This document shows, piece by piece, positions 1 through 55,976 of a DNA stretch of 64,000 nt (within the stretch, counting starts at the first letter, position 1; the number at the start of each line of letters is the position of its first letter). Below the pieces are notes generated by a model. It was not told the origin of the DNA and did no database searches. It saw only the letters and a list, made by a program, of their open reading frames with translations. A program made the translations under genes and the position numbers. Source of the stretch: Minisyncoccia bacterium (lineage in GTDB: Bacteria > Patescibacteriota > Minisyncoccia > Phycocordibacterales > GWA1-40-21); contig JBAQFI010000012.1 of NCBI GenBank assembly GCA_049287185.1, positions 54,659 to 118,658 of the forward strand, given 5' to 3'.

Positions 1-927
1 TCCGTCAATAATTATATTATCTCTATCTTTTTTATTAATACGCGAAAAGAGAAATATAAACAAAAGTTCATCCTCGATGCCTTCTATTACTGTATTTGGT
101 GATAAAGTCATACCATTTTCATCTTTCACAAATGATACAATCTTCTTTTTTATTCCATCAAAGTTTGGAAATACAAAATATGAATCATGAGTGGTAATTA
201 TGACTTGATGATTAGGCAAATTAGAAATTTTCTCTAAAGTGTCATTCAAAGTTCTTTTTAATCTGGGATGCAAATATATCTCAGGCTCTTCAAATAGAAT
301 CAATACTGGTTTATCGATGTAATTCTTTCTATCAACTAAAATATCTAGGTAGGCCTTAATAATTGACGCAATAATTAACCTTTGTGTACCCTGTCCTAAA
401 TTTTCAAGCTTCCTGTTTTCCTTATTATCCTCACTAATATATTCGTCAACAGTAATAGAATTAATTAATTCTTTTATTATCGTCTTTGAATCTAGATTTT
501 CCTGATTCGAATCAATTAAAACTTCGTGTTTTTTATTTCCCGAAAACTCATTTAAGTTTTTGTTTGCCTTACTTTTAATATCATTAATAATATTTAAAAA
601 GCCTTCTTTATCTTTTAACACAAATTCAAACCCTAGATTAGAAAAAAGTTCTGCTAAATTCGTTACCAGATTAGTCGATGTGGCTGAAAATTTTAATTCA
701 TTATCCGATGGTCTTATATTTTCCGCAGCAATATAAACTATCTTTGGTGTTGTTACTTTTAGCCCCTTATCATCAGTAAACTCAGAATTTTTACCTCGAA
801 CAGCATTGATAAAGTTAGTTTTACCTGCGTTATTTTCTCCAGTTATGACTGTCATATTTTCTAATTCAAGTGTAAAACCTTCTGGAACGGTTTTTTCTTT
901 TTTTGGTATTTTTATTATTTTAATCAT
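1..927 (-). CDS. OLD-family-like AAA_15/ABC-type ATPase, N-terminal 309 aa only (gene runs off window start); a TOPRIM-like segment begins at the window edge
   Basis: Own translation from ATG (complement of 925-927): MIKIIKIPKKEKTVPEGFTLELENMTVITGENNAGKTNFINAV... Walker A GENNAGKTN, ABC-signature-like LGQGTQRL, Walker B/D-loop LILFEEPEIYLHP, H-loop ITTHD, then VIEGIEDELLF (TOPRIM-like Glu motif). Absent from ORF track because the frame is open at the window edge. Confidence 0.6.
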   Translation of the reverse strand, partial: MIKIIKIPKKEKTVPEGFTLELENMTVITGENNAGKTNFINAVRGKNSEFTDDKGLKVTTPKIVYIAAENIRPSDNELKFSATSTNLVTNLAELFSNLGFEFVLKDKEGFLNIINDIKSKANKNLNEFSGNKKHEVLIDSNQENLDSKTIIKELINSITVDEYISEDNKENRKLENLGQGTQRLIIASIIKAYLDILVDRKNYIDKPVLILFEEPEIYLHPRLKRTLNDTLEKISNLPNHQVIITTHDSYFVFPNFDGIKKKIVSFVKDENGMTLSPNTVIEGIEDELLFIFLFSRINKKDRDNIIIDG

Positions 928-1058
928 TAGATTTTGTTTGTCTCAGAGAGATGATTTTGTTGGCTGGCCGACTCGGGCTGGGACTCTTGGGTTCGTTACC
1001 CTGTAAGGCTATTCTAGCATATTTTTGGATTAAAAATCGACGCGACTTGAGCGCTACA

Positions 1059-1712
1059 CTAATAAATACAAAAAGATTTAACGGGTTCCGCAGTAAGCCT
1101 AAATGGTTTAACATAGTTTCCCCCTTTTAATGTCCGCCATTTTCCATCCCACGAGATATTCAGTAAAAAACGTGCTGGTCTTAAACCATTATCACTCACA
1201 ACGTGAATAATAAAAATATAATCCCCTGGTAATAATTCATTTTTAATACTACCACTAGGAAAAGCTTGTGCCATTATTCGCAAAATCTGTTCTCCCTCAC
1301 ATATATAACATACATCTAACCTTCTTTTATGTTTAGGTAAAACGTCTACGGGAGCTATTTGGGCTTCATGCGCCCATTTTAATTTCACTGGAGCTCTAAA
1401 TTCATCAATTCTAGAATAGTTCAGCCCTTTTTCGTTTTTGATCCAAATCTCCGTAAGATATGCCTCCGTATTTTTTGATATTTCAAACCCCCTATTCTTA
1501 GCCATTAGGTGTATCCAATAAGATTGTGGCCTAGAGGGGTGATCTAAAAGTTTGACCTCATAGTACGTCTCTTTTGGAGAAAAAAATATTTTGAATTTTG
1601 CCTTATAAAAAATAAGTTTAAACAATGCATATGGAATAGCGATAATCGTTAAAAAAGCAGCAACTTGTGGTATTACAGGAGATTTTATTAAATTTATTAT
1701 AGAATCCATCAT
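1059..1712 (-). CDS. membrane-anchored hypothetical protein (N-terminal TM helix, unknown soluble domain)
   Basis: ORF track 217 aa; hydrophobic stretch VAAFLTIIAIPYALFKLIF; no recognisable motif; co-directional with neighbours. Confidence 0.45.
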   Translation of the reverse strand: MMDSIINLIKSPVIPQVAAFLTIIAIPYALFKLIFYKAKFKIFFSPKETYYEVKLLDHPSRPQSYWIHLMAKNRGFEISKNTEAYLTEIWIKNEKGLNYSRIDEFRAPVKLKWAHEAQIAPVDVLPKHKRRLDVCYICEGEQILRIMAQAFPSGSIKNELLPGDYIFIIHVVSDNGLRPARFLLNISWDGKWRTLKGGNYVKPFRLTAEPVKSFCIY

Positions 1713-1746
1713 ATTTGTAAATTAAAGTCGACTCGACTTGAGTATA

Positions 1747-2364
1747 TTAACTTTGTGACTGATCCCCTTGTGCCGGCGGCCTTGTGGGTAAAGAAAGTGG
1801 TGGATTATTAATCATCATAATATTTATATTCTGCATTGATTCAAGATAAGGTTTATTTGGAATATCAGTTATTAAACCGTATTTTTTTGCTTCCTCAGCA
1901 GACATCACATGCCCCTGTCTCACAGTTTTTTTAACAGCACTTAATTTTTTAGAAGTTACACCAGAAATAACCTTACAGTAATCGTCAGTAATACGTTCGT
2001 TCAGATTGCCAATTTCATGAAGTTTAACTCCGTTAAATGTTCCCTGCATAGTTGTCAGAGCCTCGTGCAAAGTAAATCTGCACCCAGTCATCGCTAATCT
2101 CTGATCACCTGCACAAAAGATCATGACAGCCGCGCTATCAACATTACCCATTCCAATAACTGTCTTCTTTATGCCTAATTGTTTTAAATAATTATATGCA
2201 AGTAATCCATGATCTGAAGAACCACCCGAACTTGAAATTTGAATTATTATTTCATCCAAAGGATTCTCTGGTTTTTGTGTAGCAATTTGTTGAGTAATAA
2301 AATTAATTAAGTTATTAACCGTTATTTCAGAAATACCAGCATAAAAATTTATTAGCGCTTTCAT
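1747..2364 (-). CDS. ClpP-like serine protease (S14/ClpP-crotonase fold), divergent and not housekeeping ClpP
   Basis: ISSSGGSSDHGLLAYNYL...GMGNVDSAAVMIFCAGDQRLAMTGCRFTLHEA aligns to ClpP INSPGGVITAG...GQAASMGAFLL...RVMIHQP, with the Ser (VDSAA) and His (TLHEA) positions conserved; C-terminal SAEEAKKYGLITDI resembles ClpP SAPEAVEYGLVD. No clpX adjacent. Confidence 0.6.
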   Translation of the reverse strand: MKALINFYAGISEITVNNLINFITQQIATQKPENPLDEIIIQISSSGGSSDHGLLAYNYLKQLGIKKTVIGMGNVDSAAVMIFCAGDQRLAMTGCRFTLHEALTTMQGTFNGVKLHEIGNLNERITDDYCKVISGVTSKKLSAVKKTVRQGHVMSAEEAKKYGLITDIPNKPYLESMQNINIMMINNPPLSLPTRPPAQGDQSQS

Positions 2365-2371
2365 TTTAATG

Positions 2372-2746
2372 TTACTTTATTAATTTTTTAAAGGCGTCAG
2401 GGTTAGCTTTTGCTGTATCTAAAATTGATTTAAAATCAAACCTGCCATATCCATAAGTTTGTTCCTCAGCATTTTCGCCTTTTTCTTTGTTTAAATAGTT
2501 AATTAGATCTAGGATAGAGTTTATTATATTACCAGCCAGTTGAATGGGTTTCCCATATTTTTCTATTGAATATTCCTGTCCAAACTTATCCTTTTCATGT
2601 TCTGGTCTAAAGGTTTCAGCTATTAAATCAGCTCGCTGATAAATGTTTTTCCAGAGATACCTAATAATAGTCTCCCAACGAAAAAAATTCTTTTCTGCCC
2701 ATTTGATCACAATTATAAAAATGACTATTAGTACTAGATACCACAT
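2372..2746 (-). CDS. small membrane-anchored hypothetical protein
   Basis: 124 aa; N-terminal TM MWYLVLIVIFIIVIKW then a charged soluble domain; first gene of the minus-strand cluster next to the tRNA. Confidence 0.4.
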   Translation of the reverse strand: MWYLVLIVIFIIVIKWAEKNFFRWETIIRYLWKNIYQRADLIAETFRPEHEKDKFGQEYSIEKYGKPIQLAGNIINSILDLINYLNKEKGENAEEQTYGYGRFDFKSILDTAKANPDAFKKLIK

Positions 2747-2817
2747 ATGATTGTTATATTAAATTATTAATTCCAATGAAATTTAACGCGACCTGAGTAC
2801 TCGAACCTCGCTCAAGT

Positions 2818-2891
2818 TGGCTGCCAGACTTGGAATCGAACCAAGATACCGAGCTTCAAAGGCTCGTGTCCTACCGTTAGACGATCTGGCA
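2818..2891 (-). tRNA. tRNA-Gln (anticodon UUG), CCA encoded
   Basis: Reverse complement folds as a cloverleaf: acceptor UGCCAGA/UCUGGCA with U1-A72 (typical of Gln), D-arm GUCU-AACGGUA-GGAC, anticodon stem CGAGC/GCUCG, loop CUUUGAA giving anticodon UUG, T-arm CUUGG-UUCGAUU-CCAAG, discriminator G, CCA. Confidence 0.85.
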
Positions 2892-2922: not shown

Positions 2923-3564
2923 ATGCCACAAAAACAACCTTTTGAATATAAAATATATTTGTGCTACCATTTAAAAATGGACGAAAAAATAGCAAAAGAT
3001 TTAACGAAAAATACAAATAACGTACCTAAAACATCACTACACCAGTATTTAAAGGATAAAGGAATACTTATTTCCTCAATTGGAGCAATGTTAGGTCTAG
3101 GTAGTTTTTTGGGTATTATTGGCTTAATCTCTGTAAAAACACTTACAATATGGCCGTTAATTTTTGTTTATTCATTTATATTTTTACTTGTACTTGGTGT
3201 GGTAATCATTTGGTCTGAAATAATATATACTTTTCCACCTAATCCGGAAATTAGACTTAGGTTATTCAAATATATTCTTGTTGCTCTATATATTCTAACG
3301 ACAATTATTGCATGCTTAGTTTATAGAAATTTATCTAATATATTAATGCCAGTCATTATGTTTTTTATGGTGGGTTTACCACTCGTGAAATTTTTAGAAG
3401 ATACCATTTTATTTAGATTTATAATATGGATTAAAAAGAAATTTAATAATAAGATTAAGATATTGTTTATAATCATTGCTGTAGTAATATCATCTTTAGT
3501 AACACTTTTATTATATGAATTAACAAATTTCGTTAACCTTTTTATAAATAAGATGGTAATTTAA
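2923..3564 (+). CDS. polytopic membrane protein, hypothetical
   Basis: 213 aa ORF with five or six hydrophobic helices; alternative start at Met 2977 (MDEKIAK) is possible. Confidence 0.4.
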   Translation: MPQKQPFEYKIYLCYHLKMDEKIAKDLTKNTNNVPKTSLHQYLKDKGILISSIGAMLGLGSFLGIIGLISVKTLTIWPLIFVYSFIFLLVLGVVIIWSEIIYTFPPNPEIRLRLFKYILVALYILTTIIACLVYRNLSNILMPVIMFFMVGLPLVKFLEDTILFRFIIWIKKKFNNKIKILFIIIAVVISSLVTLLLYELTNFVNLFINKMVI

Positions 3565-55110: not shown

Positions 55111-55301
55111 GTGGACCGCACCGGACACGCTTTGCATTCTCCCTCGACTAAAACCTCGTCGCCACTCGGTTTTGTCTGGTCACGCCCTCACATAATTTTC
55201 TACTAAAAATCATTGGCTCCGGGCTTCGAGTCCGGACACGAGTGATGCCTATCACTCGCTTGCAGTCCATACAAAAAAATCGCTAATCGCGATTTTGTTT
55301 G
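55111..55301 (-). other. conserved ~190-nt tRNA-Ala(GGC) 3' trailer element ending in a direct repeat of the tRNA 3' end (att-like); possible ncRNA or integration remnant
   Basis: Minus-strand reading: terminator-like hairpin aaatcgcgattagcgattttttt, hairpin gagtgat-aggc-atcactc, conserved blocks ggactcgaa, cggagccaat, agtaga, atgtgag, ccagac, gacga, agtcgagggaga, then aagcgtgtccggtgcggtccac repeating tRNA positions 59-73. Confidence 0.5.
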
Positions 55302-55374
55302 TGGACCGCACCGGACTCGAACCGGTCACCTCTTCCATGCCATGGAAACGCTCTACCAGATGAGCTAGCGGCCC
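55302..55374 (-). tRNA. tRNA-Ala (anticodon GGC), no encoded CCA
   Basis: Reverse complement GGGCCGC-UA-GCUC-AUCUGGUA-GAGC-G-UUUCC-AUGGCAU-GGAAG-AGGUG-ACCGG-UUCGAGU-CCGGU-GCGGUCC-A; G3-U70 Ala identity pair. Confidence 0.85.
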
Positions 55375-55719: not shown

Positions 55720-55792
55720 GGGCCCTTAGCTCATCTGGTAGAGCACCTGCTTTGCAAGCAGGGGGTGGCAGGTTCGAGTCCTGTAGGGTCCA
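55720..55792 (+). tRNA. tRNA-Ala (anticodon UGC), no encoded CCA
   Basis: GGGCCCU-UA-GCUC-AUCUGGUA-GAGC-A-CCUGC-UUUGCAA-GCAGG-GGGUG-GCAGG-UUCGAGU-CCUGU-AGGGUCC-A; G3-U70. Confidence 0.85.
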
Positions 55793-55976
55793 CAAATTTA
55801 AAACACCGAAAGGTGTTTTTAATTTGTGGACCCTAAGTAAGTGCTGGGCAGCACTTACGTCAGGACTCGAACAGCGGAGCCAATTTTTGTCAGTAGACAA
55901 AAATGTGAGCTGGTGCCCAGACTAAATTTTGTGACGACAAAATTTAAGTCGAGGGAGAGACTCCTGTAGGGTCCAC
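55793..55976 (+). other. conserved ~185-nt tRNA-Ala(UGC) 3' trailer element, homologous to 55111-55301
   Basis: Terminator hairpin aaaacacc-gaaa-ggtgttttt nested in a 23-bp stem pairing the tRNA 3' end (agggtccacaaattt...aatttgtggaccct); hairpin aagtgct-gggc-agcactt; same conserved blocks; ends cctgtagggtccac copying the tRNA 3' end. Confidence 0.5.

What the first reader, a model, noticed from the sequence alone, without database searches (positions are those of the whole stretch)
1..2891. tRNA-Gln-adjacent minus-strand cluster: OLD-like AAA_15 ATPase, ClpP-like protease and two membrane proteins (candidate defence or abortive-infection island)
Directly 3' of tRNA-Gln(UUG), the usual insertion side for islands, lie four co-directional genes. 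In order they are a small TM protein, a divergent ClpP-fold Ser-His protease without ClpX, a TM-anchored unknown protein, and an ABC/AAA_15-type ATPase with a complete Walker A, signature, Walker B/D-loop and H-loop. After the ATPase domain the protein reads VIEGIEDELLF, the signature start of a TOPRIM nuclease domain, and then runs off the window, so it resembles an OLD-family nuclease. OLD/AAA_15 ATPases are the motors of several anti-phage systems (Gabija, PARIS, Septu). I know of no described system pairing one with a ClpP-like protease and membrane proteins, so this may be an undescribed membrane-coupled protease/nuclease system. A GC-rich 40-nt segment (961-1000) sits in the ATPase leader.
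Basis: partly seen in the sequence, partly recalled or inferred. Interest (0 to 1): 0.75.

Follow-up and report, generated by a model that had tools for sequence, protein, structure and literature searches.

The report
Mosaic accessory-gene island beside tRNA-Gln
Beside a glutamine tRNA gene of an uncultured ultra-small (CPR/Minisyncoccia) bacterium lie four accessory genes that look separately acquired rather than one new defence machine; the ATPase lacks the predicted nuclease domain, and it and the ClpP-like protease belong to families that elsewhere sit in or next to restriction-modification loci.

Summary
The sequence features are real: tRNA-Gln(UUG), two single-pass membrane proteins, a ClpP-fold Ser/His protease, an AAA_15/AAA_21 ABC-type ATPase and a GC-rich patch in the ATPase leader.

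The interpretation mostly fails. The full ATPase is 401 aa. After the ATPase head come about 110 residues with an invariant R-x4-H, and there is no TOPRIM, so it is not an OLD-type nuclease.

The four genes co-occur nowhere else among 136 fetched loci from other assemblies. Each family travels alone.
- ATPase relatives lie beside DNA methyltransferases, PD-(D/E)XK nucleases (DUF2130, DUF2779), serine recombinases and tRNAs.
- The protease family is embedded, often with overlapping stop and start codons, between type III Mod and Res or type I HsdS and HsdR.
- The small membrane gene follows a tRNA-Gln in four of five independent contexts.

The GC-rich patch belongs to a roughly 100-nt non-coding module found in three other loci. 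It ends in a 15/18 copy of the tRNA-Gln 3' end. This suggests a 1.84-kb insert (three genes) stacked in front of an older ATPase insert.

Verdict: a mosaic, defence-flavoured integration hotspot. It is not a new membrane-coupled protease/nuclease system. The protease's embedding in restriction-modification operons is the most interesting by-product.

The parts
2818..2891 (-). tRNA-Gln(UUG). Its 3' end (2816-2833 including 2 flanking nt) is the reference copy of the putative att-type repeat.
   Evidence: ARAGORN; Rfam tRNA 62 bits; repeat D9.
2779..2797 (-). D2 motif copy c (AAATTTAACGCGACCTGAG on the + strand; CTCAGGTCGCG on the - strand), 20 nt after the tRNA end.
   Evidence: The three copies are the only ones in the 64 kb.
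2372..2746 (-). g4: 124-aa protein with one N-terminal transmembrane segment. It belongs to a small CPR-specific family that follows a tRNA-Gln in 4 of 5 independent contexts.
1747..2364 (-). g3: 205-aa ClpP-fold Ser77/His100 peptidase. It has Gly at the canonical Asp171 position and lacks the N-terminal axial-loop region. The family is embedded in type III and type I restriction-modification operons elsewhere.
1724..1742 (-). D2 motif copy b, in the 34-nt g3/g2 spacer.
1059..1712 (-). g2: 217-aa N-terminally membrane-anchored protein with no known domain. The family has 46 CPR members and occurs alone in varied contexts.
954..1055 (-). Conserved non-coding module of about 100 nt. It comprises D2 copy a (1033-1051), a TGnTAnAAT-like box, the 'CCTTACAGGGTAACGAAC' motif (991-1008), the GC-rich patch, and a tRNA-Gln 3'-end-like 18-mer (959-976; 15/18 match).
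1..927 (-). g1: first 309 of 401 aa of an ABC-type (AAA_15/AAA_21) ATPase. The C-terminal R-x4-H domain begins at about residue 280 and runs off the window.

Best explanation
The region is the tRNA-Gln-proximal end of an integration hotspot in a Minisyncoccia (Patescibacteria/CPR) genome. It holds separately acquired accessory genes, not one four-gene machine.

Inferred layout, read on the minus strand:
- the intact tRNA-Gln;
- a 1.84-kb insert carrying g4 (small membrane protein), g3 (ClpP-fold Ser/His protease) and g2 (membrane-anchored protein);
- a conserved non-coding end module of about 100 nt, which finishes in a decayed copy of the tRNA-Gln 3' end;
- an older insert that begins with the 401-aa ABC ATPase.

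Shown:
- The gene identities.
- The absence of TOPRIM from the ATPase.
- The independence of the four families in other genomes.
- Their neighbourhoods elsewhere.
- The repeats.

Inferred:
- g1 is a stand-alone, NTP-driven sensor of the OLD/Gabija/PARIS/Septu-type ABC head. Its effector is either its own small C-terminal Arg/His domain (PrrC/RloC-like logic, possibly an RNase) or a neighbouring nuclease that lies beyond the window.
- g3 is a self-compartmentalised peptidase whose normal partner is a restriction-modification enzyme. It would either trim or alleviate the restriction subunit or back it up. Here it is orphaned from any restriction-modification genes.
- g4 and g2 are cargo or lead genes of tRNA-Gln-targeting elements. 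Their biochemical roles are unknown.
For: 1. No TOPRIM.
- The protein is 401 aa in full.
- In the C-terminal region (residue 276 onward) only L293, R333 and H338 are invariant in 31 relatives.
- OLD and GajA profiles stop by about residue 286.

2. Independence of the four families.
- tblastn and profile HMMs of the four families find co-occurrence only in L001, which is the window itself. The sample covered 29 ATPase loci, about 35 protease loci, 6 g2 loci and 11 g4 loci.

3. ATPase neighbours (95 proteins from 28 loci).
- DUF2130 x6, N6_N4_Mtase x5, DUF2779 x4, C5 methylase x3, D12 methylase x2.
- Also Tsp45I, EcoO109I, ResIII, RloB, integrase and resolvase.
- ATPase genes abut tRNA genes and large serine recombinases in L017, L020, L023, L024 and L027.

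4. Protease neighbours.
- The gene sits between type III Mod and Res in L094/L115, L095, L099, L104 and L121. In L089 it overlaps Mod upstream, but the 424-aa downstream gene has no Pfam hit.
- It sits directly after type I HsdS in L091 and L092. HsdR follows in L092, and L091 ends at the contig edge.
- Intergenic gaps range from -10 to +8 nt.
- The closest homologue (80% identity, L082) sits beside a C5 methylase, an Eco47II endonuclease and a DpnI-like gene.

5. Island borders.
- An 18-mer at 959-976 matches the tRNA 3' end at 15/18. The chance expectation is 0.02 matches per window.
- L127 replicates the architecture: tRNA-Gln, then a g4 homologue and two other genes, then a 23/27 direct repeat of the tRNA end 2.0 kb away.
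- g4 homologues follow tRNA-Gln in L127, L130-133 and L134-136. In L134-136 a serine recombinase and a rolling-circle Rep gene are also present.

6. The right flank is housekeeping.
Against: - The four genes are co-directional and closely spaced (7, 34 and 131 nt).
- Three spacers share a motif found nowhere else in the 64 kb, so co-regulation in this genome is possible.
- The 15/18 repeat is only moderately significant by local alignment: 6 of 2000 shuffles reach its score, and other window segments score as high.
- No recombinase is visible in the window, and the left flank beyond 72 extra nt (L001) could not be recovered.
- The defence roles rest on guilt by association. No PADLOC model matches g2, g3 or g4.
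- The HEPN-like reading of the C-terminal domain is not supported by fold search.
- ORFs in the comparison loci were called with a simple longest-ORF rule.
Confidence: 0.6

Rival explanations
1. One reading: one four-gene, membrane-coupled system in which an OLD-like ATPase-nuclease works with a ClpP-like protease and two membrane proteins.
For: - The genes are co-directional with short spacers.
- A D2 motif sits in three spacers and nowhere else in the 64 kb.
- The ATPase head resembles the PADLOC Old, AriA and GajA profiles.
Against: - There is no TOPRIM.
- The families do not co-occur in any other locus.
- A tRNA-end-like repeat and a conserved end module separate the ATPase from the other three genes.
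- Membrane-protein neighbours are not a general feature of the protease family: 3 of 16 other loci have one, and none is homologous to g2.
Confidence: 0.07
2. A cassette array: D2 repeats are recombination sites of a tRNA-Gln-specific system that stacks single-gene or few-gene cassettes ([g4-g3], [g2], then the end module), analogous to integron-like accretion.
For: - Three direct D2 copies sit exactly at cassette junctions.
- D2 followed by the tail motif, with the same 29-30-nt spacing, is conserved in L127. The module also occurs in L021 and L032.
- Each gene family occurs alone elsewhere.
- g4-led inserts carry variable cargo: protease here, SNase in L128, and unknown genes in L127.
Against: - No recombinase is present in the window.
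- D2 is absent from the other 113 loci at exact match, and only four module copies were found in 0.9 Mb.
- The module contains a TGnTAnAAT-like box, so it may simply be a promoter or operator.
- n = 2-4.
Confidence: 0.15
3. A prophage remnant: g3 is a ClpP-related head-maturation protease and g4/g2 are leftover phage membrane proteins.
For: - g3 hits PHROG phrog_94 (head maturation protease) at 1e-17.
- g3 hits NCBIfam Clp_rel_HeadMat at 1.7e-14.
Against: - The NCBIfam score of 54 bits is below the 120-bit cut-off.
- Among 50,697 phage records there is one weak hit (30% identity, E = 9e-6).
- Neighbours of protease loci scanned against Pfam gave restriction-modification genes and no capsid, portal or terminase family among the hits seen.
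Confidence: 0.04
4. Ordinary housekeeping: g3 is a lineage-specific ClpP paralogue and the other genes are core CPR genes that happen to lie by a tRNA.
For: - The protease family is well conserved: 50-80% identity across Parcubacteria, WWE3 and Peregrinibacteria.
- Some g2 and g4 homologues sit among housekeeping genes (L113; L130).
Against: - The context changes from genome to genome, with transposases and recombinases nearby.
- The gene is embedded inside restriction-modification operons.
- It falls below every NCBIfam ClpP cut-off.
- The canonical Asp and the N-terminal region that docks ClpX are missing.
Confidence: 0.1

Closest known systems
OLD-family nucleases and the related ABC-ATPase defence motors (GajA of Gabija, AriA of PARIS, PtuA of Septu, the HEC-01 to HEC-04 ATPases)
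   Same: - g1 has the same type of ABC ATPase head: PADLOC Old 5e-26, AriA 8e-24, GajA 1e-16, HEC-01A 4e-13.
- Foldseek matches SMC, Rad50, RecF, OLD, PtuA and AriA heads.
- Relatives live among methyltransferases and nucleases. This matches the described theme of ABC ATPases coupled to varied effectors (bioRxiv 10.1101/2024.01.29.577857).
   Different: - There is no fused TOPRIM (401 aa against about 570-640 aa).
- No GajB, AriB or PtuB partner is visible in the window.
- The common partners in relatives are DUF2130 and DUF2779 (PD-(D/E)XK) instead.
PrrC / RloC anticodon nucleases (ABC ATPase fused to a C-terminal HEPN RNase; PrrC is embedded in type I restriction-modification loci)
   Same: - Size (about 400 aa) and order of parts are similar: an ABC ATPase followed by a small C-terminal domain.
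- R-x4-H is invariant and lies at the end of a helix, as described for HEPN helix 3 (PMC3710099).
- Relatives are frequently adjacent to restriction-modification genes.
   Different: - There is no Pfam AAA_13 hit even at E<=10.
- In this window it is not embedded in a restriction-modification locus.
ClpP (peptidase S14) and ClpXP-mediated restriction alleviation of type I HsdR
   Same: - g3 has the ClpP fold and aligns colinearly with solved ClpPs, with the Ser and His in register.
- A Clp protease acting on a restriction subunit is established biology for EcoKI (PMC4231737). That makes a protease inside restriction-modification operons mechanistically plausible.
   Different: - The family lacks about 20-45 N-terminal residues of solved ClpPs and has Gly where ClpP has Asp171.
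- It scores 52 bits against the 308-bit TIGR00493 cut-off.
- No ClpX or ClpA gene is adjacent.
- It is genetically embedded in type III and type I operons, a placement I did not find described.
tRNA-targeting integrative islands and tandem accretion at tRNA genes
   Same: - The cluster lies on the 3' side of a tRNA.
- An imperfect direct repeat of the tRNA 3' end lies 1.86 kb away, and L127 replicates this.
- Relatives of the cargo genes lie beside tRNAs with large serine recombinases.
- Core genes lie on the other side.
   Different: - No integrase or recombinase is present in the visible part.
- The insert is very small (1.84 kb).
- The repeat is degraded (15/18).
- The distal junction carries a conserved 100-nt module of unknown role.

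Membership tests
OLD-family nuclease | N-terminal ABC-type ATPase with Walker A, signature, Walker B and H-loop | tested here: met
   AAA_15 7e-21; PADLOC Old 5e-26; the motifs are invariant in 31 relatives.
OLD-family nuclease | C-terminal TOPRIM domain (conserved Glu plus DxD metal site) | tested here: not met
   The protein ends at residue 401. There is no OLD-like TOPRIM Pfam hit. OLD and GajA profiles align only to about residue 286. In the C-terminal region (residue 276 onward) only L293, R333 and H338 are invariant. There are no TOPRIM structural matches.
Gabija / PARIS / Septu | Adjacent partner gene (GajB helicase, AriB TOPRIM, PtuB HNH) | tested here: inconclusive
   The upstream neighbour is g2, with no domain. 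The downstream neighbour lies beyond the window and could not be fetched. Among relatives, one locus has an HNH neighbour (L005); the others have DUF2130 or DUF2779.
PrrC/RloC (ABC ATPase-HEPN anticodon nuclease) | Sequence membership (Pfam AAA_13) | tested here: not met
   No AAA_13 hit at E<=10 for P0001, P0048 or P0094.
PrrC/RloC (ABC ATPase-HEPN anticodon nuclease) | C-terminal nuclease domain with a conserved R-x4-6-H | tested here: inconclusive
   R333-x4-H338 is invariant. Nuclease activity and fold are not established.
HEPN superfamily | Four-helix up-down bundle with R-x4-6-H at the end of helix 3 | tested here: inconclusive
Canonical ClpP (S14, ClpXP/ClpAP partner) | Ser-His-Asp triad in register | tested here: not met
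   Ser77 and His100 align. The Asp171 position is the nearly invariant Gly151.
Canonical ClpP (S14, ClpXP/ClpAP partner) | Scores above curated equivalog cut-offs; N-terminal axial loops; ClpX/ClpA linkage | tested here: not met
   TIGR00493 scores 52 bits against the 308-bit cut-off. The alignment starts at ClpP residues 39-49 in most solved ClpPs. No AAA+ unfoldase family appears among the Pfam hits of neighbours in 22 loci.
Pfam CLP_protease superfamily | Profile match above the gathering score | tested here: met
   78.8 bits against the 20.2-bit cut-off.
ClpP-related phage head-maturation protease | Curated model score; adjacency to capsid, portal or terminase genes | tested here: not met
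   NF045542 scores 54 bits against the 120-bit cut-off. There is one weak hit in 50,697 phage records. The neighbours are restriction-modification genes.
tRNA-integrated genomic island | Lies at the 3' end of a tRNA gene with a direct repeat of the tRNA 3' end at the far border | tested here: met
   The match is 15/18 at 959-976, with 0.02 expected per window. Significance by local alignment is only moderate. L127 replicates the arrangement with a 23/27 repeat.
tRNA-integrated genomic island | Integrase or recombinase within the island | tested here: not met
   The window has no homologue of the large serine recombinase found in related loci, tested with L020's copy, and Pfam scans of the four cluster genes, the ORF at 2923-3564 and ten right-flank ORFs show no recombinase domain. 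The left flank is unavailable. Related loci do carry large serine recombinases.
Integron-like cassette array | Repeated recombination sites between cassettes plus a cognate integrase | tested here: inconclusive
   Three D2 copies lie at junctions. No integrase was found. D2 may be regulatory.

The most novel reading that the evidence does not exclude
Two linked novelties are not excluded.

1. The CPR-specific ClpP-like peptidase may be a dedicated accessory of restriction-modification systems. It is often translationally coupled between Mod/HsdS and Res/HsdR. It could be a built-in restriction-alleviation protease that degrades the restriction subunit, or a PrrC-style second-line effector released when restriction is blocked.

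2. The window may show such genes being shuffled as small cassettes by a tRNA-Gln-specific recombination system. That system would use the D2 repeat and the conserved 100-nt end module, which ends in a tRNA-Gln 3'-like sequence.
Probability: 0.25. Interest if true: 0.7.

Novelty: new variant of a known kind. Interest (0 to 1): 0.42.

Why it matters
- As proposed, the finding would have been a new class of membrane-coupled protease/nuclease immunity. That reading is not supported, which saves follow-up effort.
- What remains is a small, readable example of how ultra-small CPR bacteria stack accessory genes at a tRNA-Gln site.
- It also gives two leads for immunity in a poorly studied phylum. 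One is an ABC ATPase family with a new Arg/His C-terminal domain in place of TOPRIM. The other is a ClpP-fold protease built into type III and type I restriction-modification operons.
- The protease lead makes the old question of how restriction enzymes are restrained or backed up by proteolysis testable with a genetically linked protease.

Tried and rejected
- **Extending the contig leftwards.** The protease look-up returned only a 2.5-kb Logan contig, adding 72 nt. P0001 is not indexed.
- **TOPRIM.** Rejected.
- **A truncated ClpP handle region with D128 as the third triad residue.** This was my first reading. I rejected it after the colinear alignment to solved ClpPs.
- **The ATPase leader as a structured RNA, riboswitch or tRNA.** Rfam finds nothing. 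The single-sequence fold has z = -0.39. The four-sequence consensus fold is -1.26 kcal/mol.
- **The leader as a full decayed tRNA-Gln copy.** A global alignment is suggestive, but only the 3' 18-mer is statistically supportable.
- **Looking for more module copies.** None in viral contigs. No copies beyond the four known in 0.9 Mb of CPR loci.
- **Membrane-protein neighbours as a general feature of the protease family.** Rejected.
- **Restriction-modification partners elsewhere in the 64 kb.** None.
- **The afdb50 fold library.** Unavailable.


Full report
**What is in the sequence**

ARAGORN and Rfam place tRNA-Gln(UUG) at 2818-2891 on the minus strand. Downstream of its 3' end lie four co-directional genes:
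- g4, 2372-2746, 124 aa;
- g3, 1747-2364, 205 aa;
- g2, 1059-1712, 217 aa;
- g1, 927 to 1, with 309 codons visible.

The spacers are 71, 7, 34 and 131 nt. A hydropathy scan gives one N-terminal membrane segment in g4 and one in g2, and none in g3.

g3 matches Pfam CLP_protease (6e-22). g1 matches AAA_15 and AAA_21 and the PADLOC Old, AriA and GajA profiles. g2 and g4 match nothing in Pfam, NCBIfam, PHROGs or PADLOC.

The patch 961-1000 is 65% GC in a 33% GC neighbourhood. The raw observation is therefore sound.

The other side of the tRNA holds a multi-pass membrane ORF and then housekeeping genes: DinB, diacylglycerol kinase, peptide deformylase, two ABC-F proteins and NAD kinase. Source names attached to identical proteins place the window in a Minisyncoccia (Patescibacteria/CPR) MAG, on a contig of 255,939 bp.

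**The ATPase is not an OLD-type nuclease**

A protein 100% identical over all 309 visible residues (P0001) is 401 aa long. A Logan contig extends the window's reading frame by 24 codons and agrees with it.

The family has 119 detectable members. Nearly all are 340-400 aa and nearly all come from Patescibacteria. In an alignment of 31 of them, the ABC motifs are invariant. In the C-terminal region (residue 276 onward) only L293, R333 and H338 are invariant. There is no conserved Glu plus DxD.

OLD, GajA and AriA profiles align only as far as about residue 250-286. Pfam and PADLOC find nothing in the last 123 residues.

**The four genes are not a conserved unit**

I fetched the following loci:
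- 31 loci around ATPase relatives from species-representative genomes (L002-L032), 29 of which contain a recognisable ATPase ORF;
- 27 loci around protease relatives from metagenomes, plus 12 from look-ups;
- 6 loci around g2 relatives;
- 11 loci around g4 relatives.

tblastn and profile HMMs of all four families find two or more of the families together only in L001. L001 is the same sequence as the window. The one other overlap, L071, is a Bacillus locus carrying an unrelated AAA_15 protein and a canonical ClpP.

**What each family does keep company with**

*ATPase.* Among 95 proteins within two genes of it in 28 loci, the commonest Pfam families are:
- DUF2130 (6, always directly upstream);
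- N6_N4 methylase (5);
- DUF2779/Cas4-like (4, always directly downstream);
- C5 methylase (3) and D12 methylase (2).

Tsp45I, EcoO109I, ResIII, an RloA/RloB-like pair, an integrase and a resolvase also occur. DUF2130 is listed as a PD-(D/E)XK family (PMC3424549). Several ATPase genes abut tRNA genes and large serine recombinases, in L017, L020, L023, L024 and L027.

*Protease.* The family is a tight CPR-specific group: about 95 clusters, 50-80% identity, all about 200-206 aa. Similarity then drops sharply to canonical ClpP at 27% identity.
- It sits between a type III Mod methylase and the Res subunit in L094/L115, L095, L099, L104 and L121. In L089 it overlaps Mod upstream, but the 424-aa downstream gene has no Pfam hit.
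- It sits directly after the type I HsdS gene in L091 and L092. HsdR follows in L092, and L091 ends at the contig edge.
- The intergenic gaps range from -10 to +8 nt, so several genes overlap or nearly touch.
- The closest homologue (80% identity, L082) lies beside a C5 methylase, an Eco47II endonuclease and a DpnI-like gene.
- Other loci show PDDEXK_1, Mrr_cat, DUF3800, a KAP NTPase, an IS110 transposase and serine recombinases.
- Roughly half of the loci with enough flanking DNA are embedded in restriction-modification operons.

Against solved ClpPs the family aligns colinearly. Ser77 and His100 are in register. The Asp171 position holds a nearly invariant Gly, and about 20-45 N-terminal residues of solved ClpPs are absent. 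It falls below every NCBIfam ClpP cut-off and below the head-maturation-protease cut-off. It has one weak hit in 50,697 phage records. I found no paper describing a ClpP-like gene inside restriction-modification operons.

The nearest precedents are two:
- ClpXP degradation of HsdR during restriction alleviation (PMC4231737);
- the general finding that genes embedded in defence operons are often themselves defence genes (bioRxiv 10.1101/2024.01.29.577857).

In this window no homologue of those partner restriction-modification genes exists within the 64 kb. The protease here is orphaned.

*g2.* It has 46 relatives. They occur singly, beside PDDEXK_3, Translin, Mrr_cat and DUF1828/1829, or beside housekeeping genes.

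*g4.* The family is small, with 12 representative clusters. Its downstream partner varies: the protease here, a 246-aa protein plus an SNase nuclease in L128, and unknown genes in L127. A tRNA-Gln lies just upstream in four of five independent contexts: the window, L127, L130-133 and L134-136. In L134-136 a large serine recombinase overlaps the tRNA and a rolling-circle Rep gene is present.

**Borders and the GC-rich patch**

The patch is part of the g2-g1 spacer. Its 18-mer at 959-976 (CCGAGTCGGCCAGCCAAC) matches the tRNA-Gln 3' end (2816-2833) at 15 of 18 positions on the same strand. Such a match is expected 0.02 times per window. A local-alignment test is less impressive: 6 of 2000 shuffles reach the score.

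Independent support comes from L127. There, tRNA-Gln is followed by a g4 homologue and two other genes. A 27-nt repeat of the tRNA end plus flank then occurs 2.0 kb away, matching at 23/27.

The whole spacer (954-1055) is a conserved non-coding module.
- It aligns without gaps to L127 5667-5770 at 69 of 104 positions.
- It aligns at 59-60 of 104 positions to sites in L021 (directly upstream of an ATPase relative) and L032 (upstream of a methylase gene in an ATPase-bearing island).
- The background maximum elsewhere is 48-51.
- A sequence model finds just these four copies in 0.9 Mb and none were found in viral contigs.

The module contains, in order:
- the D2 motif;
- a TGnTAnAAT-like box;
- the most conserved core, 'CTTAC(A/T)(G/T)GG';
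- the GC-rich part, ending in 'GGCCAGCCA'.

It has no conserved RNA fold and no Rfam match.

The D2 motif (CTCARGTCGMG) occurs exactly three times in the 64 kb. All three copies are on the minus strand: after the tRNA, in the g3/g2 spacer, and after g2.

The simplest reading is as follows:
- A 1.84-kb insert (g4-g3-g2) landed at the tRNA-Gln 3' end, in front of an older ATPase-bearing insert.
- The module is either the element end or att site, or a promoter/operator that such elements carry.

No recombinase is visible, and the left flank could not be retrieved.

**Mechanism, with shown and inferred steps separated**

Shown:
- the domain content of the four genes;
- the absence of TOPRIM;
- the lack of co-occurrence;
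- the neighbourhood statistics;
- the repeats.

Inferred:
- The ATPase is an ATP-driven sensor like other defence ABC heads. It acts through its own Arg/His domain or through a neighbouring nuclease.
- The protease family works with restriction enzymes, either restraining Res/HsdR or acting as a back-up. In this window it is decoupled from them.
- The membrane proteins are element cargo of unknown role.

The tight spacing and shared D2 sites leave open co-regulation of the genes in this particular genome.

**Verdict**

The region is a new variant of a known kind, a tRNA-linked mosaic of accessory and defence-type genes. Two by-products are worth following up: the protease embedded in restriction-modification operons, and the tRNA-Gln-linked cassette and module architecture.

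**Limits**
- ORFs in the comparison loci were called with a simple longest-ORF rule.
- Sample sizes for g2, g4 and the module are small.
- The genome collection holds one genome per species.
- All functional statements are by association.

Noticed in passing
L094/L115 5001-5627, L099 5992-6609, L104 4176-4766, L095 4394-5047, L089 2434-3042, L121 5001-5621, L092 1172-1789, L091 3017-3625: The CPR-specific ClpP-like protease gene is embedded between type III Mod and Res, or directly after type I HsdS (HsdR follows in L092). In several loci its start or stop overlaps the neighbouring gene. I found no description of this arrangement in the searched literature.
   Followed up: partly
window 1033-1051, 1724-1742, 2779-2797 (minus strand): A 19-nt direct repeat (core CTCARGTCGMG) occurs exactly three times in the 64 kb. 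Each copy lies in a spacer of this cluster. A related copy lies at the equivalent place in L127 (5673-5687).
   Followed up: partly
window 954-1055(-); L127 5670-5771; L021 1132-1234; L032 4422-4524: A conserved non-coding module of about 100 nt (D2, a -10-like box, CTTACWGGG, then a GC-rich tRNA-Gln-3'-like end) lies at island junctions or upstream of ATPase or methylase genes. It has no conserved RNA fold and no Rfam match.
   Followed up: partly
L012 8465-12647; L020 8478-12637: A recurrent three-gene block, DUF2130 then the ABC ATPase then DUF2779/Cas4-like nuclease. In L020 it is next to a large serine recombinase and tRNA-Met. This may be the native system of the ATPase family.
   Followed up: no
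L134 2615-6324 (also L135, L136): A g4 homologue sits on an apparent integrative element: tRNA-Gln overlapped by a large serine recombinase gene, small ORFs, g4, and a rolling-circle Rep (REP_ORF2-G2P/RepSA).
   Followed up: no
L128 3216-5226: A g4 homologue is followed, 1 nt later, by a 246-aa unknown protein and then an SNase-domain nuclease. The small membrane protein may therefore lead operons with interchangeable effectors.
   Followed up: no
window 2923-3564 (+): A 213-aa multi-pass membrane ORF with no family match lies in the lowest-GC stretch of the neighbourhood (26-27%), between the tRNA-Gln 5' side and dinB. It may also be accessory.
   Followed up: no
window 55301-55374(-) and 55720-55793(+): Two divergently oriented tRNA-Ala genes (GGC and UGC) lie about 350 nt apart.
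   Followed up: no
L006 8089-11152: In a 'Woesearchaeota' assembly the ATPase relative lies directly after an AAA_21 ATPase plus RloB-like pair, and another relative of the family lies 1.5 kb further on.
   Followed up: no
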